DNA from: a virus
Reading direction: 5' to 3' (one strand)
Length of the DNA stretch: 10,288 nt
UHGV virus genome: UHGV-0129999
The first letter of the stretch is position 1; every line of letters begins with the position of its first letter. Positions 3,089 through 10,288 of this stretch are shown here, piece by piece. The notes under the pieces were generated by a model. That model ran no database searches. It was not told where the DNA came from and worked only from the letters and a program-made list of their open reading frames with translations. A program made the position numbers and the translations under genes.

Positions 3089-4087
3089 TTATCCGTTACC
3101 GCGCGACGGTTTCTGCGTGATAAACGTCTCAAGCATCTTTTCCGCAATTGCCGACCAGGTGTGACACTGGACCTTTTCAGCATTTTTCACGCGATCAACG
3201 CGAGCAATAACCTCATCCCAATCAATCCGCGACTTGATAACCATATGGTTCACCAAAGCCAGGCGATCTGGCGGAAGGCAATCGGGAGGCGTTAATACCA
3301 ACGCCCCACACATTGCCGCCTCAAGAACAGTTAATCCAAGGCTTTCGGGATGCGTAACAATAAAAACATCACTCTTACGCAATTCAGCTGCAAATTCGGT
3401 TGCTGGTACCGGCGTCCGTCTGTATGGAGTTACCGAAATATTCCCCGGATCAATGGTAACCAATCCGTCATCGGTCAACGTTCTGGCCTCATACGGAACA
3501 GTCAGACGCTGAAGGTTCATAAGGATACTTAAGGAGTGATCAAACCCACTAACATCAAATGCAGCGTGGTCTACAAAAATACGCAGAACATCGTCTGTTT
3601 TGGTTTCCAGATGGAACAGCTCCTGATTCGCTGCCCATCCAACATGTTTGTTAAAGCGATTATGACGCTCTAACCTGCCGGGATTATCCAGGTACCGCCA
3701 GGTATCATCGCGGACAGTAAAAGTAATATCAACTGGTGCCGAATCCAGCATAGAACCGTCGTATACCTGAGCTACCCATCCAGTGAATCGACGACGCAGT
3801 TGCACGCCTATTTCCCTGGGCACCGTAGTAAAATACCGCAATCCTGGCGCTAAAATGGCTTTCGCAGAACACGAGAGCGCAGCGGTCAACACAGCTTCAA
3901 CATAATCCTCCGGGCTTTCGACGCCGGGGGAATATGGACGATGGTATTGCAATGTTACCCCTGCCTCACTAAAGGCGCAGGCCAGGTTGTAAGCCCACAT
4001 TTCCGTATATGTTTTCACATCACTGATAGCTTCAAATTTTCGCCCAATGATCAGGATGTTCATCGGCTTTTCCTCATTCCATTGCAT
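3089..4087 (-). CDS. Putative GT-B fold glycosyltransferase (family 1/4-like), translationally coupled to the upstream helicase gene; occupies the position of P1 dbn (downstream of ban)
   Basis: 332-aa ORF. C-terminal region ESLGLTVLEAAMCGALVLTP matches the E-x7-E motif region of retaining GT-B glycosyltransferases (compare EGFGLxxLEAMAxGxPVI). Start ATG overlaps the helicase stop as TAATG (4085-4089). An alternative start at the ninth codon (ATG at 4063, MNILIIGRK) has a stronger GAGGAA Shine-Dalgarno. Confidence 0.6.
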   Translation of the reverse strand: MQWNEEKPMNILIIGRKFEAISDVKTYTEMWAYNLACAFSEAGVTLQYHRPYSPGVESPEDYVEAVLTAALSCSAKAILAPGLRYFTTVPREIGVQLRRRFTGWVAQVYDGSMLDSAPVDITFTVRDDTWRYLDNPGRLERHNRFNKHVGWAANQELFHLETKTDDVLRIFVDHAAFDVSGFDHSLSILMNLQRLTVPYEARTLTDDGLVTIDPGNISVTPYRRTPVPATEFAAELRKSDVFIVTHPESLGLTVLEAAMCGALVLTPPDCLPPDRLALVNHMVIKSRIDWDEVIARVDRVKNAEKVQCHTWSAIAEKMLETFITQKPSRGNG

Positions 4088-5451
4088 TAATAATCCTCTT
4101 GCCAGTCAGCACCAGCATAGTTATCAAACCGTGAGTATTGGCCGTTAAAAGCCAATCTCACCGTGCCAATTGGGCCATTTCGTTGCTTTCCGATAATTAC
4201 CTCGGCAATGCCCTTCATTTCGCTATCCGGGTGATAAACTTCGTCGCGATACAGAAACATGATCAGGTCTGCGTCCTGCTCAATTGCTCCTGATTCACGT
4301 AAATCTGAATTTACCGGTCGTTTGTCCGCACGCTGTTCAAGCGATCGATTAAGTTGTGACAATGCCACCACCGGTACTTGTAATTCCTTCGCCAACGCCT
4401 TCAGTGAGCGAGAAATCTCGGCAATTTCCAGCGTTCGGTTATCTTGCAGCTCGGGGACGCGCATAAGTTGCAGGTAGTCGATCATAATCATGCTCAAACC
4501 ACCATTTTCTTTATAAACACGACGAGCGCGGGAACGAAGCTCTGTAGGTGTCAGGGCGCTTGAGTCATCAATAAAAATATTCTGCTTGTCCAACAGAATC
4601 CCCATTGCGCCAGAAACCCGCGCCCAATCCTCGTCGTTAAGTTGCCCTGTTCGAATACGAGTCTGATCAACGCGTGCAAGAGAAGCCAGTGAGCGCATCA
4701 TCAGCTGGTGGCTCGGCATCTCAAGGCTAAAAACCAATACGGGCTTATCGTTACGGACTGCGGCATTTTCGACGAGATTCATCGCAAACGTAGTCTTCCC
4801 CATCGATGGGCGGGCGGCGACAATAATGAGATCGGACGCCTGAAGTCCTGCCGTCTTCTTATTGAGATCGGTAAATCCGGTATCAAGCCCCGTTACACCA
4901 TCATGCGGTCGCTGAAACAACTCTTCTATGCGAGATACCGTTGCATCGAGAATGCTGGCGATATCTTTTGGACCACTACCGCTCTTTTGTCGTTTTTCAG
5001 CTATTTCAAAAACGCGGCGCTCGGCCATATCCAGCAATTCATTGCTGCCCCTGCCATCCTGCGCATATCCAGCTTCGGCTATTTCATTTGCGACGGAAAT
5101 CATTTCACGAACAACCGCGCGTTCACGAACGATATCCGCATAAGCACAAATATTTGCCGCGCTGGGCGTGTTCTTTGACATCTCCGCAAGGTACGCAAAA
5201 CCACCGGCGCGTTCTAATTTACCGTTCTGTTCAAGTGCTTCAGCAAGTGTTATCAAATCAATCGGTTTGCCATGACTTAATAACCTCTCCATCTCACTGA
5301 AAATTTCACGATGAGCACTGGTATAAAAATCATCAGTAACTATACGATCTGCAACTTCATCCCAGCGGCAGTTATCAAGCATTAAGCCACCAAGTACAGC
5401 TTGTTCTGCACTAAGGGAATTTGGCATGGATTCAAGAGGGGATGCAGACAT
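4087..5451 (-). CDS. ban: Replicative DNA helicase, DnaB family (phage P1 Ban-like DnaB analogue)
   Basis: Protein is collinear with E. coli DnaB along its length (AEQAVLGGLMLDN, GFAYLAEMSKNTPSAANI, Walker A ARPSMGKTTFAMNLVENAA, IDYLQLMRVPELQDNRTLEIAEISRSLKALAKEL, SQLNRSLEQRADKRPVNSDLRESG) but diverges at the N-terminus and scattered positions, as expected for a phage paralogue. The ORF track starts at GTG 5457; ATG at 5451 is preferred because GGAG lies 5 nt upstream of it. Confidence 0.9.
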   Translation of the reverse strand: MSASPLESMPNSLSAEQAVLGGLMLDNCRWDEVADRIVTDDFYTSAHREIFSEMERLLSHGKPIDLITLAEALEQNGKLERAGGFAYLAEMSKNTPSAANICAYADIVRERAVVREMISVANEIAEAGYAQDGRGSNELLDMAERRVFEIAEKRQKSGSGPKDIASILDATVSRIEELFQRPHDGVTGLDTGFTDLNKKTAGLQASDLIIVAARPSMGKTTFAMNLVENAAVRNDKPVLVFSLEMPSHQLMMRSLASLARVDQTRIRTGQLNDEDWARVSGAMGILLDKQNIFIDDSSALTPTELRSRARRVYKENGGLSMIMIDYLQLMRVPELQDNRTLEIAEISRSLKALAKELQVPVVALSQLNRSLEQRADKRPVNSDLRESGAIEQDADLIMFLYRDEVYHPDSEMKGIAEVIIGKQRNGPIGTVRLAFNGQYSRFDNYAGADWQEDY

Positions 5452-5735
5452 TAGCACTCCACCCAGGCGTGCTGAATGTCAGATATAATCGGCATACTCA
5501 AATCACTCCTAACGATATGAGTCATCACCAGAAAATCAGGATTAATGCGCCGGACTCTTCCCGGCTGTCACACCGAATCGCCAGGATGGTGAGTCCCTGA
5601 ATCCGCTATCCTACCAACGGTGACTTGCACATTCCGGCTACCTGGTTTGTTGCCTGAGCTAGGGGAAAGGTTACCCCTTTAACGTCACCAGACCGCTAAC
5701 GACGCATGTGCCAGACGCCGTGTTACAACCAAATA

Positions 5736-5811
5736 TGGTGGCCCCTACCGGACTTGAACCGGTGACCGTGCGATTATGAGTCGCCAGCTCTAACCACTGA
5801 GCTAAAGGGCC
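5736..5811 (-). tRNA. tRNA-Ile (anticodon CAU, lysidine type; automated tools may label it tRNA-Met)
   Basis: Reverse complement GGCCCTTTAGCTCAGTGGTTAGAGCTGGCGACTCATAATCGCACGGTCACCGGTTCAAGTCCGGTAGGGGCCACCA (76 nt) folds as a canonical cloverleaf with encoded CCA; anticodon loop CUCAUAA; anticodon stem-loop nearly identical to E. coli ileX as recalled from memory. One G-A mismatch at the 27-43 pair. Confidence 0.85.
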
Positions 5812-5838
5812 GGATTACTGCCAATTTTGCTTACGCTT

Positions 5839-6666
5839 TTATTTCACCGGAACAAACGGAACAGCGGTATTACTGGTCATATACTGCGGTAATGTACCGT
5901 TCCATTTGTTGATCGCTTCCAACTCCATAACACCGGGGTTCTGGCGCAGAGCTTCACCACGTAAACGAATGGCATCAGCTTCGGCCTGGGCTTTTGTGCG
6001 AATAGCATCAGCCTGTCCGGCAGCTTCCGCGCGCAGCATGTTGGCCTCTGCTTCACGTTGTTTGACCTCTTGCTCGCGTTGCAGGGTTTTTTGGTTTGCC
6101 GTGACTTTGGCGTTAATACTGTCAATAACTGTTGGCGGGTATTCTGGCTTACCTACATAAGAGAGGCTCATCACCTGAATGCCGATTGGCGTCATTTCTT
6201 CCTGAATGTCTTTAAGGGCTGCATCAAGCAATTCGGATTTGCCACCGTCGATAAATTTGTCGGTTGTCATTTTGCTGGCTAACCGGTTCAGAGCATCTGC
6301 AACCTTCTGGCGTAGATCGGTATCAGTAATATCATCTACACCTTTGCGATAGGTCTGAAATACCGTTGTGACTTTTGCTGGATCAACCTTGTAGGCTACG
6401 CCGATGTGGTAACCAATGGTTGTTCCGTCGCTCATCTGGAAGCTGAACGGCTCATCGTATGTCTTCATTTGCTTAAAGGTCGGGAAGATATAAACTTCAG
6501 TATTCAAGCCTGTCCAGTAGCGACCAACGCCAACTACTTCACCGATACCTTTATCATCCCCCAGCTTATTTACTTTGATCCCTACGTTACCTGGCTCTAC
6601 CCGATCGCATCCGGTCAGACATAAAGAACCCAAAATAATCGCTGCACTAATCAACGTTTTTTTCAT
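5839..6666 (-). CDS. SPFH/Band-7 (stomatin/prohibitin-like) domain lipoprotein
   Basis: 275 aa; N-terminal signal peptide with lipobox (LCLTGC); central region typical of SPFH domains followed by a long Ala/Glu/Gln/Arg-rich coiled-coil tail (QREQEVKQREAEANMLRAEAAGQADAIRTKAQAEADAIRLRGEAL). AGGAAA Shine-Dalgarno upstream of ATG 6666. May correspond to P1 plp (from memory of the P1 map, not verified). Confidence 0.8.
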   Translation of the reverse strand: MKKTLISAAIILGSLCLTGCDRVEPGNVGIKVNKLGDDKGIGEVVGVGRYWTGLNTEVYIFPTFKQMKTYDEPFSFQMSDGTTIGYHIGVAYKVDPAKVTTVFQTYRKGVDDITDTDLRQKVADALNRLASKMTTDKFIDGGKSELLDAALKDIQEEMTPIGIQVMSLSYVGKPEYPPTVIDSINAKVTANQKTLQREQEVKQREAEANMLRAEAAGQADAIRTKAQAEADAIRLRGEALRQNPGVMELEAINKWNGTLPQYMTSNTAVPFVPVK

Positions 6667-6883
6667 TAATTAATTTCCTGGTTTTTTCACGAAAAAAGAC
6701 TACTGCGAAAGCTGGGTAAATGAGCGCGAGAAGGACTCCCAACAATACAAGTATTGTGCTGTTAGATGAGATCATATTTGGCAAAAGCCAAACATACAGA
6801 ACCAGTGACACAATCAAACAGAGGACGGCATAAATATATAACCGCACCCATAGCGTTCGACATTTGTTCGGATTGTTCTGCAT
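6647..6883 (-). CDS. Small two-helix integral membrane protein, overlapping the start of the SPFH lipoprotein gene
   Basis: 78-aa ORF with two hydrophobic stretches (LYIYAVLCLIVSLVLYVWLL and ILVLLGVLLALIYPAFAVVFF); GGAGTGAGAGG upstream of ATG 6883; 3' end overlaps the downstream lipoprotein gene by 20 nt, suggesting co-expression. May correspond to P1 upl. Confidence 0.55.
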   Translation of the reverse strand: MQNNPNKCRTLWVRLYIYAVLCLIVSLVLYVWLLPNMISSNSTILVLLGVLLALIYPAFAVVFFREKTRKLINEKNVD

Positions 6884-7064
6884 CCTCTCACTCCATTATT
6901 TAACGAATAAAAAAGCTGCGGTGCCGGGTGCCTCCCGGTGTCCTTTGGCTGGTTATCCACCGTGGACGGGGAAACAAGGAGAAATGAATGGACTGATATA
7001 ACCATTTCCCCGCGTGCGCTTAGCCGCATTCACCGCAACGGAAAGAGCATTCTTGGTGGACCTG

Positions 7065-7088
7065 TAGATTGGGATATGAACCCGTTAC
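7065..7088. repeat. 24-bp motif TAGATTGGGATATGAACCCGTTAC, copy 1 of 2 (plus a partial third copy at 7901..7917)
   Basis: Direct observation: 23/24 identity with 7344..7367; core GGG-ATATGA-CCC is an interrupted palindrome, and on the - strand reads GGGTTCATATCCC (tRNA T-arm-like). Confidence 0.5.
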
Positions 7089-7343
7089 AGGAGAATGCTC
7101 TTACCTGTTACGTGCTCCGTTTCGTGGAGCTAACGGCGGGTGATCAGACCGCACCAGACTGGACTTATTTCAGCGTTATGCTCATGCCAGAGAATCAAAC
7201 TGTGATGGTCGGTGCTGAACTCCGACACAGGGTTGTAGCAAGCCCCGCAAAGCGCGCACTACTGTAGTTGCGGCACATCAGCCTGTGCATTCACCACAAT
7301 GTTGAGAACACTGGTTGTCACGCTGCCTCGCGACATTTATTCA

Positions 7344-7367
7344 TAGATTGGGATATGACCCCGTTAC
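7344..7367. repeat. 24-bp motif TAGATTGGGATATGACCCCGTTAC, copy 2 of 2
   Basis: Direct observation; flanked by an inverted repeat pair (AATGTTGAGAACA at 7298..7310 and TGTTCTCAACGTT at about 7363..7375). Confidence 0.5.
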
Positions 7368-7533
7368 GCCAATGTTCTCAACGTTGTAGTGCCGGTTACG
7401 GTTCCGGCCAGGCCTCTTCCTCAACGGGGTGTTCTCCATACGGACTACCGTTTATTGGTCGTTCCTGCGGTTTATGTTGTGAAGCCAGATGCTTATCTTC
7501 TGGTTGCTTCTAAGAGCTGCACTTCATCACAAC

Positions 7534-7607
7534 GGTAAGGGTACTTCGTAGGGATTCGAACCCTCTGCCAAGCTCGGCGATCTCCGACGTCGCAAAATAC
7601 CCTTACC
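7534..7607 (-). ncRNA. Non-canonical tRNA-like element (possible pseudo-tRNA or structured RNA) directly 3' of tRNA-Thr
   Basis: The - strand reads GGTAAGGGTATTTTGCGACGTCGGAGATCGCCGAGCTTGGCAGAGGGTTCGAATCCCTACGAAGTACCCTTACC (74 nt): perfect 10-bp terminal helix (GGTAAGGGTA / TACCCTTACC), canonical T-loop GGGTTCGAATCCC, but no recognisable D-arm or anticodon arm and no encoded CCA. Lies 8 nt after tRNA-Thr. Confidence 0.3.
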
Positions 7608-7615
7608 TGTTGTGC

Positions 7616-7692
7616 TGGTGCCGATTAACGGACTCGAACCGCTGACATCCTGCTTACAAGGCAGGCGCTCTACCAACTGAGCTAAACCGGCA
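7616..7692 (-). tRNA. tRNA-Thr (anticodon UGU)
   Basis: Reverse complement TGCCGGTTTAGCTCAGTTGGTAGAGCGCCTGCCTTGTAAGCAGGATGTCAGCGGTTCGAGTCCGTTAATCGGCACCA (77 nt): 7-bp acceptor stem, D-arm GCTCAGTTGGTAGAGC, anticodon loop CUUGUAA, T-arm GGTTCGAGTCC, encoded CCA. Confidence 0.85.
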
Positions 7693-7693
7693 T

Positions 7694-7769
7694 TGGCGAT
7701 GGTGGATGGATTTGAACCATCGACCCGTTGATTAACAGTCAACCGCTCTAACCGCTGAGCTACACCATC
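7694..7769 (-). tRNA. tRNA-Asn (anticodon GUU)
   Basis: Reverse complement GATGGTGTAGCTCAGCGGTTAGAGCGGTTGACTGTTAATCAACGGGTCGATGGTTCAAATCCATCCACCATCGCCA (76 nt): canonical cloverleaf, anticodon loop CUGUUAA, encoded CCA; separated from tRNA-Thr by 1 nt. Confidence 0.85.
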
Positions 7770-8000
7770 ACTTGCCGGGTACGTCTCCGGCGAGGGCTTC
7801 CACCTCCGTATGCTTTTCGGCGCACCGCGCCCTGGCTGCAATTCGGTAACAGGGGATGCATAACCCTGGCTTCCAGCGTGATTAGCGCTTTCAGCATGAC
7901 GGGATATACCCGTAAATTCGTGGAACTGTACCCAAAGTGCTGTTAAGCACCGCTGTTACGCTGAAAAGAAGACGCAACAGGAAAGGACGCTGACCAACAG

Positions 8001-8537
8001 ATGGCCCCTTATGCAGATCTGTCAATGCTGCTTCAACTCGATATTGGTTGGGATGTTTACTGCCGTGCCAATGAGCGAGAAGTTTCAGAACTGCCGATCT
8101 CTATTGCCATTGGTGATGTGAATATTACTAAATCGCTTGAGGACGCTGTTAACGCGCTTAATACATCAAGTTTAGTCGCTGCTATGGGGGAGATTAACCA
8201 GACCCTTAACACTGGCTCAGGAAGCTCGTCAGGCTCTGGTTCAGGCGGCGGCACTGCCACTCCCCCACCAGCACTAACAGAAGAGCAAATTGAATCTCTG
8301 AAAGTAGCAACTGAACAGTTTGGGGTTGTTTTCAACCAGACAACAGCGCCCACAACTGCGTTACAACAGCAGTATGAACGAGCGAAGGAAAGCGCCAACG
8401 TAGCCATAACTGCTTATAACCATGCTATCGGTACCGCGCTTGCGGAAGCATCAGCAAATAAGGTCAGCACAGCCAGCGCAGTTGCCGTTTTGGTTCCTGA
8501 TTCTGTTCTTGATGAATTAAACAAAGCGGCACAGTAA
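8001..8537 (+). CDS. Hypothetical two-domain protein with a Gly/Ser-rich linker (GSGSSSGSGSGGG); function unknown
   Basis: 178-aa ORF on the strand of the downstream genes; no strong Shine-Dalgarno at the ATG at 8001, so the start is uncertain. No TM segment or recognised motif. Confidence 0.45.
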   Translation: MAPYADLSMLLQLDIGWDVYCRANEREVSELPISIAIGDVNITKSLEDAVNALNTSSLVAAMGEINQTLNTGSGSSSGSGSGGGTATPPPALTEEQIESLKVATEQFGVVFNQTTAPTTALQQQYERAKESANVAITAYNHAIGTALAEASANKVSTASAVAVLVPDSVLDELNKAAQ

Positions 8538-9362: not shown

Positions 9363-9583
9363 TGTACTCATGTTCTTACCGAAGAGGATTTTTTCAGCAC
9401 TGAAGAACGAGAAGGAGTTGATCGCTGCATTGGTGTGATTTGCTCTTCAGTGAGTTATGAGTTATTCCCTAATGTCCATGAAGATGGTGGTGTTGGATAC
9501 CAATTCCTGTATGAAGGCGATGAGCTTAAATGTTATGAACATGGTCTTCTTATCGAAAGCGTAGAATAATATGACTTCCTTCC

Positions 9584-9608
9584 AACCGGCTTTGTTGGCC
9601 GGTTTATT
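9584..9608 (+). terminator. Rho-independent terminator closing the + strand gene set upstream of the origin
   Basis: 7-bp stem AACCGGC (9584-9590) / GCCGGTT (9598-9604), 7-nt loop, then TTTATT. Confidence 0.5.
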
Positions 9609-9612
9609 CAAC

Positions 9613-9621
9613 TTATCCACA
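9613..9621 (+). promoter_or_regulatory. Consensus DnaA box (TTATCCACA) at the edge of the plasmid origin
   Basis: Exact 9/9 match to the DnaA box consensus, adjacent to the GATC cluster and iterons. Confidence 0.5.
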
Positions 9622-9626
9622 GCATA

Positions 9627-9720
9627 GATCCAATAAACAGATCCTAAAGAGAACCTAGGAAGATCCAAAGAAGATCCCGGATCGCTGTAAGCCGCGTCAT
9701 TACTGGCCTGAAATGGGATC
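9627..9720. promoter_or_regulatory. GATC-rich (Dam methylation/SeqA-type) origin region with AGATCC repeats
   Basis: Six GATC sites in 94 bp (9627, 9640, 9662, 9673, 9680, 9717) against about 0.4 expected by chance; four occur as AGATCC. Confidence 0.55.
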
Positions 9721-9724
9721 AACA

Positions 9725-9831
9725 TTGACTATACGCGATTTTATGTTGACTGTGCACGATTTATTGTTGACTGCACGCGATTTATTGTTGACTATACGCG
9801 ACAGAAACATTGACTGTAAGCGATTTTAGAG
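9725..9831 (+). repeat. Five tandem 21-22 bp direct repeats (iterons; putative RepA binding sites) upstream of the rep gene
   Basis: TTGACTATACGCGATTTTATG / TTGACTGTGCACGATTTATTG / TTGACTGCACGCGATTTATTG / TTGACTATACGCGACAGAAACA / TTGACTGTAAGCGATTTTAGAG, head-to-tail with no spacers, each starting with TTGACT; they end about 70 bp before the rep start codon. Confidence 0.7.
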
Positions 9832-9904
9832 TCTGAATATTCACAGCTGTTGATAACAGCCATCCAAATTGACGTCAGGCCGCGCCACACATGGAGAAAC
9901 CGTG

Positions 9905-10288
9905 ATGCCGGAAGAAAGTAAAGGCTTCCTTAGCGTTGAAGAAGTTGCAGGAAATACAGGAGAAATCCACAGCCTGAAGCCCAATAACAACAGCACTATA
10001 CAACCCATCGCTTTGTTGCGCTTAGGTGTGTTTGTGCCAACCTTAAAATCTACCAATGTGGCGCTACGTCGCGGATCGTCAGTTACAACAAACACAACGA
10101 ACGCAACTGAAGAACTATCAAGCCTCAAAATTGTTGAGCAGGAAGGCTATGAGGGAATTGAAATTCATGGTCCACGCCTGGATATGGATACTGATTTTAA
10201 GGTGTGGGTGGGCATAACCTCCGCGTTGTTTGACTACGCACCTGATGATGACGGCATAATCACCCTGCCATTCTCCGCGTAGATCGGA
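9905..10288 (+). CDS. repA: Plasmid replication initiator, RepA family (P1 RepA-like), 5' partial, continues beyond the window
   Basis: GGAGAA Shine-Dalgarno 8 nt before ATG 9905 (the ORF track starts at an upstream TTG). Segments NSTIQPIALLRLGVFVPT and [25 protein letters not shown] closely resemble the P1 RepA N-terminus as recalled from memory ([40 protein letters not shown]). Preceded by iterons, GATC cluster and DnaA box. Confidence 0.8.

What the first reader, a model, noticed from the sequence alone, without database searches (positions are those of the whole stretch)
5736..7769. Phage-encoded tRNA set (Asn-GUU, Thr-UGU, Ile-CAU): possible counter to tRNA-targeting host nucleases rather than codon supplementation
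The three tRNAs are host-like in sequence (the Ile tRNA closely matches E. coli ileX by recall), so codon supplementation is not an obvious explanation. It is established that several bacterial defence and toxin systems cleave specific tRNAs in the anticodon loop (for example colicin E5 on Tyr/His/Asn/Asp tRNAs, PrrC on tRNA-Lys) and that phage tRNAs can replenish or evade these. Asn(GUU) is in the colicin E5 target class. That these particular tRNAs serve that role here is inference.
Basis: partly seen in the sequence, partly recalled or inferred. Interest (0 to 1): 0.4.

Follow-up and report, generated by a model that had tools for sequence, protein, structure and literature searches.

The report
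Phage P1's three known tRNA genes
The window carries the three long-annotated tRNA genes of phage P1 (Asn, Thr-UGU, Ile-CAU); they read codons that P1 over-uses, and two of them match host tRNAs that newly described anti-phage nucleases destroy, so both explanations stay open and neither has been tested in P1.

Summary
The three tRNA genes are real. They lie on the minus strand at 5736-5811, 7616-7691 and 7694-7769, and are 100% identical to trnI, trnT and trnN of reference phage P1. The feature is therefore already known.

Only the Ile tRNA is host-like: 89% identical to ileX, against 82% for Thr and 63% for Asn.

Codon supplementation is not excluded. A P1-like genome uses AUA 2.3-fold and ACA 1.9-fold more than E. 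coli. Tail-fibre genes use ACA about 5-fold more and Asn about 2-fold more.

- The P1 Thr tRNA carries G39, like the T5 tRNA used to neutralise PARIS.
- It keeps the motif and full stem that Old cuts.
- The Asn tRNA keeps the AriB site and the colicin E5 determinant.
- No nuclease is known for Ile2.

This window also lacks the C1-controlled ban promoter. The tRNAs bracket a swappable gene cassette and several conserved structured-RNA elements.

The parts
7694..7769 (-). tRNA-Asn(GUU), the P1 gene trnN (named 'trnA' in RefSeq). It is the first gene of the tRNA block.
   Evidence: ARAGORN. Rfam 74.5 bits. 100% identical to P1 and 48/76 to K-12 asnT. Anticodon loop CUGUUAA is the same as the host's. 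Positions 36-41 read UAAUCA and position 16 is C.
7616..7691 (-). tRNA-Thr(UGU), the P1 gene trnT, 2 nt downstream of trnN.
   Evidence: ARAGORN. Rfam 72.9 bits. 100% identical to P1 and 62/76 to thrU. Anticodon stem CCUGC/GCAGG. Positions 36-41 read UAAGCA, as in T5, where host thrU has UAAUCA.
7525..7608 (-). tRNA-like hairpin: a 15-bp closing stem around a T-arm-like GGGUUCGAAUCCC.
   Evidence: Fold of -33.6 kcal/mol, z = -3.5. 100% identical in the window, P1 and D6. Not recognised as a tRNA by ARAGORN or Rfam.
7295..7400 (-). Hairpin element 'b': a 14-bp outer stem and an inner stem around the invariant 19-nt loop ACGGGGUCAUAUCCCAAUC, followed by GGUGAAUGC.
   Evidence: Fold z = -4.8. The motif occurs in more than 120 IMG/VR contigs. 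The inner stem covaries across the three versions of the element.
7035..7112 (-). Hairpin element 'c': a second copy of the same loop, with different stems.
   Evidence: Fold z = -6.6.
6905..7037 (-). STnc100-like structured RNA ending in a hairpin plus a U-run (terminator-like). It sits at the boundary of the swappable cassette.
   Evidence: Partial match to Rfam RF02076 at 37.8 bits, below the gathering score of 47, E = 4.9e-6. Fold z = -3.5. Homology to P1 ends at window position 6909. The U-run is present here but not in reference P1.
6647..6883 (-). 78-aa membrane protein gene, the first gene of the cassette that replaces P1 tciABC.
   Evidence: ORF list. phrog_1130 'membrane protein, moron', E = 6e-16. 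No PADLOC hit.
5839..6666 (-). 275-aa SPFH/Band-7 lipoprotein gene, the second gene of the cassette.
   Evidence: Pfam PF01145, E = 1e-30. phrog_200 'lipoprotein', E = 2e-113. No PADLOC hit. About 86% identical at the DNA level to genes of P88 and Stx prophages.
5736..5811 (-). tRNA-Ile2(CAU, lysidine type), the P1 gene trnI. It is the last gene of the tRNA block and lies just upstream of ban.
   Evidence: ARAGORN (labelled Met). Rfam 64.7 bits. 100% identical to P1 trnI and 68/76 to ileX. Annotated tRNA-Ile in P1 and in RefSeq plasmids.
7770..8009 (-). The retained 240 nt of leader upstream of trnN. In P1 this leader continues to the dicF-like region and to Pban/Op72, which are missing here.
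   Evidence: BLAST map to P1. P1 annotation. No C1 operator anywhere in the window, against four in the closest complete relative. No promoter-like site close to trnN.
3089..5457 (-). ban (DnaB-like helicase, 4087-5457) and dbn (3089-4087), the protein-coding tail of the operon that carries the tRNAs.
   Evidence: ORF list. 98% identical to P1 ban and dbn.

Best explanation
These are the canonical phage P1 tRNA genes trnN, trnT and trnI. Together with a run of structured RNAs and a swappable two-gene cassette they form a block of about 2.4 kb (window about 5546-7913). In intact P1 this block sits inside the early ban operon, which the C1 repressor controls.

They most likely act as ordinary elongator tRNAs. 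When the prophage is derepressed and its DNA amplifies, they would enlarge three host tRNA pools that limit translation of P1 genes: Ile2 for AUA, Thr(UGU) for ACA, and Asn.

Shown here:
- The genes are intact, canonical and almost invariant across P1-like elements.
- AUA and ACA are used about twice as often by P1 as by E. coli.
- ACA and Asn codons are strongly concentrated in the tail-fibre genes.

Inferred:
- That supply of these tRNAs limits P1 yield.
- That the main benefit is matching codon demand.
- That, for Thr(UGU) and Asn, the same supply also buffers against nuclease depletion of those host tRNAs.

In this particular window the operon's promoter and operator are deleted, so expression here is uncertain.
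For: Identity and integrity:
- establish the genes and their 100% identity to P1.
- Each tRNA has the discriminator base expected for its amino acid (G73 for Asn, A73 for Thr and Ile) and an encoded CCA (sequences).
- Across 78 IMG/VR contigs, the most common Asn, Thr and Ile2 sequences are those of the window (62/77, 55/72 and 43/57 copies). The commonest variants (U6C in trnI, U68C in trnT) turn a G-U pair into G-C in the acceptor stem.

Operon context:
- The P1 and P7 records place the tRNAs downstream of Pban/Op72. The P7 record says the operator controls the tRNA genes.

Codon demand (P1-like genome against E. coli, per 1000 codons):
- AUA 11.5 against 4.9, rank 3 of 61 codons by enrichment.
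- ACA 15.4 against 8.0, rank 7 of 61. Binomial p is about 1e-39 for AUA and 1e-33 for ACA.
- The window's own ORFs give AUA 10.4 and ACA 17.7.
- The tail-fibre genes give ACA 39-40 and Asn 70-81.
- The extra tRNA in the relatives D6 and P7 is Ser(UGA), which reads UCA, the 5th most enriched codon.

Host supply: ileX-type tRNA-Ile2 and thrU are minor host species (established knowledge, not tested here).
Against: - AGA and AGG are the most enriched codons (about 4-fold), yet the P1 family has no tRNA-Arg.
- Asn codons are not rare and are barely enriched (1.0- to 1.3-fold). The host has four asn genes.
- AUA is no higher in late genes than in the rest (11.1 against 12.3 per 1000). The abundant sheath gene avoids AUA altogether.
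- The Asn-Thr pair recurs in unrelated coliphage lineages: N4-like phages, phage Cyrano, and lambdoid mEp506 between Q and the holin gene. Codon demand does not predict that pairing, but the target set of PARIS does.
- Two P1-family alleles of tRNA-Thr differ at 13 positions, 7 of them in the 17-nt anticodon arm (binomial p about 0.013, my own calculation). That pattern fits escape from a nuclease better than codon supply.
- The promoter is absent in this window.
Confidence: 0.5

Rival explanations
1. Counter-defence. The Asn(GUU)-Thr(UGU) pair is kept mainly to replace host tRNAs destroyed by OLD-family Toprim tRNases. These are PARIS AriB, carried by P4-like satellites, and P2 Old, both found in E. 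coli mobile elements that compete with P1. The phage copies would either resist cleavage or simply out-supply it. trnI would be a separate codon-supply gene.
For: - AriB depletes host Lys(UUU), Thr(UGU) and Asn(GUU), cutting between positions 40 and 41 in the site U36-A-A-U-C|A. A U39A change abolishes cleavage. The T5 Lys, Thr and Asn tRNAs together neutralise PARIS.
- P2 Old destroys host tRNA-Thr(UGU). [quoted passage not shown]
- The window's tRNA-Thr reads UAAGCA at positions 36-41. This is identical to T5's and differs from host UAAUCA at the critical position 39.
- The Asn-Thr pair recurs in other phage lineages. In lambdoid mEp506 it lies between the Q antiterminator gene and the holin gene.
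- The P1-like phage Ro157c2YLVW carries another tRNA-Thr allele with a G27-A43 mismatch and U28/A42. That combines a shortened stem with an altered CNG motif, the two features Old resistance requires. It also carries a tRNA-Tyr, the species depleted by retron-Eco7.
- 7 of the 13 differences between the two Thr alleles fall in the anticodon arm.
- Over-supply alone can rescue infection, without any resistance mutation (Azam 2024).
Against: - P1 lacks tRNA-Lys(UUU), AriB's main target, which is 'required' for T5 to escape PARIS.
- The window's tRNA-Thr keeps C28-U29-G30/C40-A41-G42 and a full 5-bp stem. Under the published two-factor rule it should be cleaved by Old.
- The window's tRNA-Asn has UAAUC|A, the optimal AriB site, where the host has UAAUC|C. 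Its only possibly protective feature is C16.
- All three anticodon loops are identical to the host's.
- ACA is genuinely over-used by P1, so no nuclease is needed to explain trnT.
- No experiment on P1 was found. P1 was in the PARIS/Old phage panel of Rousset 2022, but the result is only in a figure that could not be read here.
Confidence: 0.3
2. Counter to colicin E5 or other anticodon-loop nucleases. This is the first reader's specific version: the P1 tRNA-Asn evades or replenishes after cleavage by colicin E5.
For: - tRNA-Asn is a colicin E5 substrate.
- Reference P1 carries the tciABC genes next to the tRNAs. They are annotated, by homology only, as 'tellurite or colicin resistance'.
- A P1-like relative adds tRNA-Tyr, the best E5 substrate.
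Against: - The E5 determinant is Y33-G34-U35-N36, and unmodified minihelices are fully susceptible. The P1 tRNA-Asn has U33-G34-U35-U36 in a loop identical to the host's, so it is not an escape variant.
- Asn is among the least susceptible E5 substrates.
- P1 has no His or Asp tRNA.
- Colicins act between bacteria, not as a response to phage infection.
- In this window tciABC is replaced by an SPFH cassette.
Confidence: 0.04
3. The tRNAs are structural parts or passengers of a mobile block. They and the tRNA-like hairpins would serve mainly as RNase P/E processing points, or as conserved homology arms that let cassettes (tciABC, SPFH and others) be swapped. In this deleted, promoter-less element they would be silent relics.
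For: - The block is bounded by trnN and trnI.
- The distance from trnT to trnI falls into at least 10 size classes (about 1150-2200 nt) across P1-like contigs.
- D6 shares only this block with the window, at 96% identity, and carries it in a different genomic position.
- Recombinants joined inside the conserved hairpin loop exist, and so does a hybrid Asn/Thr tRNA.
- Pban/Op72 is deleted here.
Against: - The tRNA sequences are near-invariant and keep full cloverleaves, the expected discriminator bases and an encoded CCA. Mere processing signals or homology arms would tolerate decay.
- The anticodons are not a random set.
Confidence: 0.12

Closest known systems
Phage P1 tRNA genes trnA(Asn), trnT and trnI in the ban operon (RefSeq NC_005856; genome paper Lobocka et al. 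2004, cited from memory because the paper is not held)
   Same: - All three tRNAs are 100% identical in sequence.
- The order is the same: Asn, Thr, cassette, Ile, ban, dbn, all on one strand.
- The flanking DNA is 98% identical.
   Different: - The cassette between trnT and trnI is an SPFH lipoprotein gene plus a membrane protein gene, not tciABC.
- Pban/Op72, the dicF-like region, dmt, hrdC, uhr, upfC and the 5' part of upfB are absent. Window position about 8010 joins two P1 points 4.6 kb apart.
- A second deletion fuses tail genes 25 and 24.
[quoted passage not shown]
   Same: - The anticodons match for Thr and Asn.
- The P1 tRNA-Thr shares T5's UAAGCA at positions 36-41, with G39 instead of the host's U39.
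   Different: - P1 has no tRNA-Lys.
- P1 tRNA-Asn keeps U39-C40-A41, where T5 has G39-U40-U41.
- Outside the anticodon arm the P1 and T5 tRNAs are quite different sequences.
- No rescue experiment exists for P1.
Phage tRNA-Thr(UGU) that rescues from P2 Old (T4-type 'Thr6', 'Thr21', HK446, Bas32/33; Govande 2025, PMC12445682; preprint 10.64898/2026.07.10.737580)
   Same: - Same anticodon and same decoding job (ACA).
- The P1-like Ro157c2YLVW allele and the lambdoid mEp506 allele both have a shortened stem and an altered CNG motif.
   Different: The allele in this window (and in P1, P7 and D6) keeps CUG/CAG and a 5-bp stem closed by C27-G43. It therefore lacks both resistance features.
Rare-codon tRNA genes of temperate coliphages, such as ileZ-argN-argO downstream of Q in Stx phages, and the T4 tRNA cluster
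   Same: - An Ile2(CAU) tRNA for AUA. P1 trnI is 85.5% identical to the Stx-phage copy.
- A T4-like phage (Paracelsus) carries Ser(UGA), Thr(UGU), Ile(CAU) and Tyr side by side.
- The decoded codons are over-used by the phage.
   Different: - P1 lacks the Arg(UCU) tRNA, although AGA and AGG are its most over-used codons.
- P1 trnI is closer to host ileX (89%) than to the Stx-phage copy.
Lambdoid late-leader Asn-Thr pair (phage mEp506: Q antiterminator, tRNA-Asn, tRNA-Thr, holin)
   Same: - The same two anticodons, in the same order and a few nucleotides apart.
- Lambdoid-size prophage contigs also carry, between Q and the holin gene, the hairpin element with the invariant loop that follows trnT in P1.
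   Different: - The mEp506 tRNA sequences are far from P1's. Its trnT shows 26 differences from thrU, and its Asn tRNA has a different backbone.
- mEp506 itself lacks the hairpin motif.

Membership tests
Phage P1 ban-operon tRNA genes (trnN/trnA, trnT, trnI) | Sequence identity to the reference P1 genes. | tested here: met
   76/76 for all three.
Phage P1 ban-operon tRNA genes (trnN/trnA, trnT, trnI) | Order Asn-Thr-(cassette)-Ile-ban-dbn on one strand. | tested here: met
Phage P1 ban-operon tRNA genes (trnN/trnA, trnT, trnI) | The C1-controlled promoter and operator (Pban/Op72) upstream of trnN. | tested here: not met
   That region is deleted: window position about 8010 joins L001 positions 10563 and 15160. 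The window has no C1 operator within 3 mismatches. The relative MH422554 has Op72 at L002 10351-10378.
tRNA-Ile2 (CAU anticodon, lysidine-dependent, ileX type) | A CAU anticodon with an ileX-like body and the TilS acceptor-stem determinants C4-G69 and C5-G68 (Ikeuchi 2005, from memory). | tested here: met
   68/76 identical to ileX, with an identical anticodon loop and acceptor stem GGCCC/GGGCC. Annotated tRNA-Ile by P1 RefSeq and by RefSeq E. coli plasmid records.
tRNA-Ile2 (CAU anticodon, lysidine-dependent, ileX type) | C34 is actually modified to lysidine and the tRNA is charged with Ile. | not testable with these tools
   Needs tRNA mass spectrometry or an aminoacylation assay.
Codon-compensating phage tRNAs | The cognate codon is more frequent in phage genes than in host genes. 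| tested here: met
   AUA 2.3-fold (rank 3 of 61) and ACA 1.9-fold (rank 7 of 61). For Asn the criterion is only weakly met: AAU 1.3-fold and AAC 1.0-fold.
Codon-compensating phage tRNAs | The enrichment is concentrated in late or structural genes. | tested here: inconclusive
   ACA and Asn are very high in the tail-fibre genes (39-40 and 70-81 per 1000). AUA is no higher in late genes (11.1 against 12.3 per 1000), and the sheath gene has no AUA at all.
Codon-compensating phage tRNAs | The host cognate tRNA is scarce. | not tested
   K-12 gene copies seen here are ileX, thrU and four asn genes. tRNA abundances are known only from the literature, recalled from memory.
Phage tRNAs that counter PARIS AriB | Same anticodon as an AriB target (Lys-UUU, Thr-UGU, Asn-GUU). 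| tested here: met
   Thr(UGU) and Asn(GUU) are present. Lys(UUU) is absent. Ile(CAU) is not a reported target.
Phage tRNAs that counter PARIS AriB | A substitution at AriB determinants (U39, C40|A41, U16). | tested here: inconclusive
   tRNA-Thr has G39, as in T5, but keeps C40-A41 and U16. tRNA-Asn keeps U39-C40-A41 and has C16. U39G itself has not been assayed in the literature read here.
Phage tRNAs that counter P2 Old | An altered CNG pseudo-palindrome together with a shortened anticodon stem. | tested here: not met
   The window's tRNA-Thr stem is C27-C28-U29-G30-C31 paired with G39-C40-A41-G42-G43. The CUG/CAG motif is kept and all 5 pairs form. The Ro157c2YLVW and mEp506 alleles do meet the criterion.
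Phage tRNAs that counter anticodon nucleases (general) | Rescue of infection on a nuclease-carrying host, or resistance to cleavage in vitro. | not testable with these tools
   No P1 experiment was found in the library.
Colicin E5-evading tRNA | Loss of the YGUN determinant at positions 33-36. | tested here: not met
   U33-G34-U35-U36 is retained.

The most novel reading that the evidence does not exclude
The Asn-Thr tRNA pair would be a portable anti-tRNase cassette. Optional Tyr and Ser(UGA) genes and the tRNA-like hairpin RNAs that follow it would belong to the same unit. It would be exchanged among lambdoid late leaders, N4-like phages, large phage-plasmids and P1-like phages.

Its alleles would diversify mainly in the anticodon arm, under pressure from OLD-family Toprim nucleases. 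The P1 allele in this window would resist PARIS AriB through G39 but not P2 Old. The Ro157c2YLVW/mEp506 allele would resist Old.

The conserved hairpins, with their invariant T-loop-like 19-nt loop, would be an undescribed phage RNA class acting as processing signals or as decoys for tRNA-binding nucleases.
Probability: 0.2. Interest if true: 0.6.

Novelty: already known. Interest (0 to 1): 0.3.

Why it matters
Why phages carry tRNA genes has been argued for about 50 years. P1 is a genetically easy model phage with only three of them.

Two of the three (Thr-UGU and Asn-GUU) have the same anticodons as host tRNAs that PARIS cleaves, and Thr-UGU is also cleaved by P2 Old. Both are defence nucleases carried by rival E. 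coli mobile elements. The same P1 genome also over-uses the codons these tRNAs read. Clean deletions of trnN, trnT and trnI could therefore separate 'codon supply' from 'counter-defence' in one system.

The finding itself is a re-observation of annotated genes. Its value lies in the sharper, testable prediction: the P1 tRNA-Thr allele should resist AriB but not Old. It also lies in showing that the tRNA block is a mobile unit shared across phage families.

Tried and rejected
Literature searches that gave nothing
- The P1 genome paper (PMC523184) is not held. What it says about the tRNAs could not be checked.
- Searches for experiments on P1 tRNAs found none.
- The 2024 PARIS Nature paper mentions only tRNA-Lys. 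The Asn and Thr targets come from the 2025 follow-up paper.
- Rousset 2022 used P1 in its defence panel, but the outcome against PARIS and Old is only in figures that could not be read here.
- Supplementary tables of the Old paper are not held, so I could not check whether the P1 tRNA-Thr was in its 245-tRNA library.

Ideas tested and rejected
- 'Anticodon-loop escape mutations': all three loops equal the host's.
- Evasion of colicin E5: the YGUN determinant is retained.
- Old resistance of the window's tRNA-Thr allele: it fails the published two-factor rule.
- The SPFH cassette as a known defence system: no PADLOC hit.
- The upl/plp ORFs annotated in P1 on the opposite strand as real genes. 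They overlap trnT and the structured RNAs, have no Pfam match, and the plp frame ends 131 nt earlier in this window.

Database searches that gave nothing
- The hairpin element has no Rfam family, either in the window or in a lambdoid example.
Its origin is unexplained.

A search error
- My first IMG/VR pattern missed the P1 allele of trnN because of one base in the D-loop, so it sampled only the non-P1 allele. A second scan corrected this.

Full report
**What is there**

ARAGORN finds three tRNA genes, all on the minus strand: 5736-5811 (anticodon CAT), 7616-7691 (TGT) and 7694-7769 (GTT). Rfam's tRNA model scores them 64.7, 72.9 and 74.5 bits against a gathering score of 29.

The window is a P1-like phage-plasmid. 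It is 97-99% identical to P1, P7, RCS47 and related phages. It matches more than 1000 plasmid records, mostly from E. coli. The three tRNAs are 100% identical to trnI, trnT and trnN (named 'trnA' in the record) of reference P1. RefSeq annotations of 190 E. coli genomes that carry this block call them tRNA-Ile, tRNA-Thr and tRNA-Asn.

**Genomic context**

In reference P1 the genes lie in the ban operon. The order on one strand is: C1 operator Op72/Pban, a dicF-like region, trnN, trnT, about 730 nt of 'intergenic' DNA, tciABC, trnI, ban, dbn. The P7 record states that the operator controls the tRNA genes.

The window differs from P1 in three ways.
- tciABC is replaced by a 78-aa membrane protein gene (6647-6883) and a 275-aa SPFH/Band-7 lipoprotein gene (5839-6666). 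Neither has a PADLOC hit.
- Window position about 8010 joins two P1 points 4.6 kb apart. This removes the dicF-like region, Pban/Op72, dmt, hrdC, uhr, upfC and the 5' part of upfB.
- Window position about 800 fuses tail genes 25 and 24 in frame and removes gene 7.

No C1 operator remains in the window, whereas the closest complete relative has four. No promoter-like site lies near trnN. I searched for the second junction and found it in no plasmid, representative genome or IMG/VR contig; neither junction occurs in any locus fetched here. Whether the tRNAs are expressed in this particular element cannot be decided.

Only the Ile tRNA is host-like. Identity to the K-12 cognates is 68/76 against ileX, 62/76 against thrU and 48/76 against asnT.

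The Asn-Thr pair belongs to a pool of phage tRNAs. Related pairs or modules occur in:
- N4-like phages, as Asn-Ser(UGA)-Thr-Pro;
- phage Cyrano, as Asn-Thr-Ser;
- a Klebsiella phage-plasmid;
- 109 IMG/VR contigs, as Asn, Asn-Tyr-Thr, Asn-Tyr-Thr-Ser or Asn-Ser;
- the lambdoid phage mEp506, between the Q antiterminator gene and the holin gene, with far more divergent sequences.

Within the P1 family, D6 and P7 add a tRNA-Ser(UGA) and Ro157c2YLVW adds a tRNA-Tyr(GUA).

**Codon supplementation**

I called ORFs the same way in a complete P1-like genome (MH422554, 89 ORFs, about 26,700 codons) and in 105 kb of MG1655.

| Codon | P1-like, per 1000 | E. coli, per 1000 | Enrichment | Rank of 61 |
|---|---|---|---|---|
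| AUA | 11.5 | 4.9 | 2.3-fold | 3 |
| ACA | 15.4 | 8.0 | 1.9-fold | 7 |
| UCA (read by the extra Ser tRNA of D6 and P7) | 13.0 | 6.6 | 2.0-fold | 5 |
| AAU | 24.1 | 18.5 | 1.3-fold | 16 |
| AAC | 22.7 | 22.5 | 1.0-fold | 29 |

- The window's own ORFs agree, with AUA 10.4 and ACA 17.7 per 1000.
- The two large tail-fibre genes reach ACA 39-40 and Asn 70-81 per 1000.
- Against this reading, AGA and AGG are enriched 4-fold and P1 has no tRNA-Arg.
- AUA is no higher in late genes than elsewhere, and the sheath gene avoids it.

Codon supply is therefore a good explanation for trnI, a fair one for trnT and a weak one for trnN.

**Counter-defence**

The general hypothesis is already published (van den Berg 2023).

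E5 needs Y33-G34-U35-N36, cuts unmodified minihelices, and has Asn among its weakest substrates. The P1 tRNA-Asn keeps U33-G34-U35-U36. All three anticodon loops are identical to the host's.

Two 2025 papers change the picture.
[quoted passage not shown] It cuts between positions 40 and 41 within U36-A-A-U-C|A. U39A abolishes cleavage, and A41C and U16C impair it. The T5 Lys, Thr and Asn tRNAs together neutralise PARIS.
[quoted passage not shown] Resistance in phage Thr tRNAs needs both an altered CNG motif and a shortened stem.
- A 2026 preprint confirms that Thr(UGU) tRNAs of T4, Bas32, Bas33 and HK446 rescue infection.
- Retron-Eco7 depletes tRNA-Tyr, and over-supply alone rescues infection.

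Tested against those determinants, the window's tRNAs look like this.
- **tRNA-Thr** reads UAAGCA at positions 36-41. This is identical to T5's and has G39 where AriB needs U39.
- **tRNA-Thr** also keeps C28-U29-G30/C40-A41-G42 and a fully paired 5-bp stem, so it should be cut by Old.
- **tRNA-Asn** reads UAAUCA, the optimal AriB site. Its only possibly protective feature is C16.
- **tRNA-Lys** is absent from P1, and tRNA-Lys(UUU) is AriB's main target.

The Ro157c2YLVW and mEp506 Thr alleles differ. They have a G27-A43 mismatch and U28/A42, the resistant configuration. The T4-type tRNA matches the published 'Thr6' exactly: 12 differences from thrU, with G30C, C40G and U43A in the anticodon arm. 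Between the two P1-family Thr alleles, 7 of 13 differences fall in the 17-nt anticodon arm (expected about 3, binomial p about 0.013, my own calculation). That pattern is what selection by a nuclease would leave. No nuclease is reported for tRNA-Ile2.

**Verdict on mechanism**

These are functional elongator tRNAs. Across 78 IMG/VR contigs, the most common Asn, Thr and Ile2 sequences are those of the window (62/77, 55/72 and 43/57 copies), and the commonest variants (U6C in trnI, U68C in trnT) turn a G-U pair into G-C in the acceptor stem. In intact P1 they are made early in lytic growth.

I rate matching of codon demand as the most likely main benefit (0.5). Counter-defence against OLD-family Toprim tRNases is a serious rival for the Asn-Thr pair (0.3). 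The two readings are not exclusive. The colicin E5 version is unlikely (0.04). A mainly structural or relic role is possible, especially in this promoter-less element (0.12).

**The rest of the interval**

D6, an otherwise divergent P1-like phage, shares only window 5546-7913 with this window, at 96% identity. It carries the block in a different place, between pmgS and the lpa/pac genes. The block bounded by the tRNAs is therefore a mobile unit. Across P1-like contigs, the distance from trnT to trnI falls into at least 10 size classes, so the cassette is a swap site.

The about 700 nt after trnT are annotated in P1 as the ORFs upl and plp on the opposite strand. On the tRNA strand they fold into four very stable elements, with z-scores of -3.5 to -6.6.
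- A tRNA-like hairpin with a T-arm motif.
- Two hairpins that share an invariant 19-nt loop, ACGGGKUCAUAUCCCAAUC, and a trailing GGUGAAUGC.
- A partial match to Rfam STnc100 that ends in a terminator-like hairpin.

The loop motif occurs in more than 120 viral contigs. In lambdoid-size prophage contigs a third version has entirely different stems; in the one locus examined (L214) it lies between the Q antiterminator gene and the holin gene. Two inner-stem pairs covary (AU/CG/UA and AU/GC/GU). The G-U pairs fit only the tRNA-sense strand. The element has no Rfam family. I followed this only part of the way.

**Novelty and interest**

The tRNA genes are already known, and the counter-defence hypothesis is published in general form. 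What is new is a specific, testable prediction for a model phage, and the recognition that the tRNA block is a shared mobile unit. Interest: 0.3.

Noticed in passing
window 7035-7112 and 7295-7400 (minus strand); also L214 about 4290-4420, L215, L222, L228: Two hairpins share an invariant 19-nt loop (ACGGGKUCAUAUCCCAAUC) and a trailing GGUGAAUGC. The motif is in more than 120 IMG/VR contigs. In lambdoid-size prophage contigs a third version has different, still complementary stems; in the one locus examined (L214) it lies between the Q antiterminator gene and the holin gene. Two inner-stem pairs covary, and the G-U pairs fit only the tRNA-sense strand. There is no Rfam family. This may be an undescribed phage RNA element, or a recombination site, since hybrids joined inside the loop exist.
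   Followed up: partly
window 7525-7608 (minus strand): Immediately downstream of trnT lies a tRNA-like hairpin with a 15-bp stem around GGGUUCGAAUCCC. It is 100% conserved in the window, P1 and D6, and is not called a tRNA by any tool. It recalls the 'tRNA-like stable RNAs of unknown function' annotated among the T5 tRNA genes.
   Followed up: partly
window 6905-7037 (minus strand): A partial match to Rfam STnc100 (37.8 bits, below the gathering score of 47) ends in a hairpin plus a U-run. The U-run is present here but not in reference P1 or D6. It sits exactly at the point where homology to P1 ends and the SPFH cassette begins. It may act as a terminator inside the ban operon.
   Followed up: partly
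window about 795-804 and 8009-8010: Two deletions relative to every P1-like record examined. The first is 1.4 kb and fuses tail genes 25 and 24 in frame into a 422-aa ORF, removing gene 7. The second is 4.6 kb and removes Pban/Op72, the dicF-like region, dmt, hrdC, uhr, upfC and the 5' part of upfB. Only 2 nt of microhomology is visible at each junction. Neither junction occurs in any locus fetched here. The second was also searched for, and not found, in plasmids, representative genomes and IMG/VR. The element is either a defective phage-plasmid or an assembly artefact.
   Followed up: partly
window 5839-6883 (minus strand): The slot between trnT and trnI holds an SPFH/Band-7 lipoprotein gene and a small membrane protein gene instead of P1's tciABC. 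The same gene pair is about 86% identical to genes of phage P88 and of Stx prophages. The slot length varies in at least 10 size classes across P1-like contigs, so it is a hotspot for accessory-gene cassettes. The cassette's function is unknown, and it has no PADLOC hit.
   Followed up: partly
window 6938-7513 (plus strand): The ORFs corresponding to P1 upl and plp lie antisense to the structured RNAs, and P1's plp overlaps trnT. In the window the plp frame stops 131 nt earlier than in P1, because of a TAA created by one substitution. There is no Pfam match. They are probably not genes.
   Followed up: partly
L147 (IMG/VR contig 2574180358_000005): One P1-like contig carries a hybrid tRNA: the 5' part of tRNA-Asn (through the anticodon arm) is joined to the 3' part of tRNA-Thr. 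This looks like a deletion by recombination between the two adjacent tRNA genes.
   Followed up: no
L008 (phage D6) 3687-5453 against window 5546-7913: D6 shares only the tRNA block with this window, at 96% identity. It carries the block between pmgS and the lpa/pac genes rather than upstream of ban. It has an extra tRNA-Ser(UGA) and no recognisable C1 operator nearby. This is evidence that the whole block moves as a unit.
   Followed up: partly
window 9445-10288: The right end of the window (upfA and the start of repA) is 99.9% identical to phage phi456, but the repA start has only a 59-nt, 76% match to reference P1 repA. In MH422554 the gene is annotated as a RepFIB-type replication protein. 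The plasmid replicon therefore differs from classical P1.
   Followed up: no
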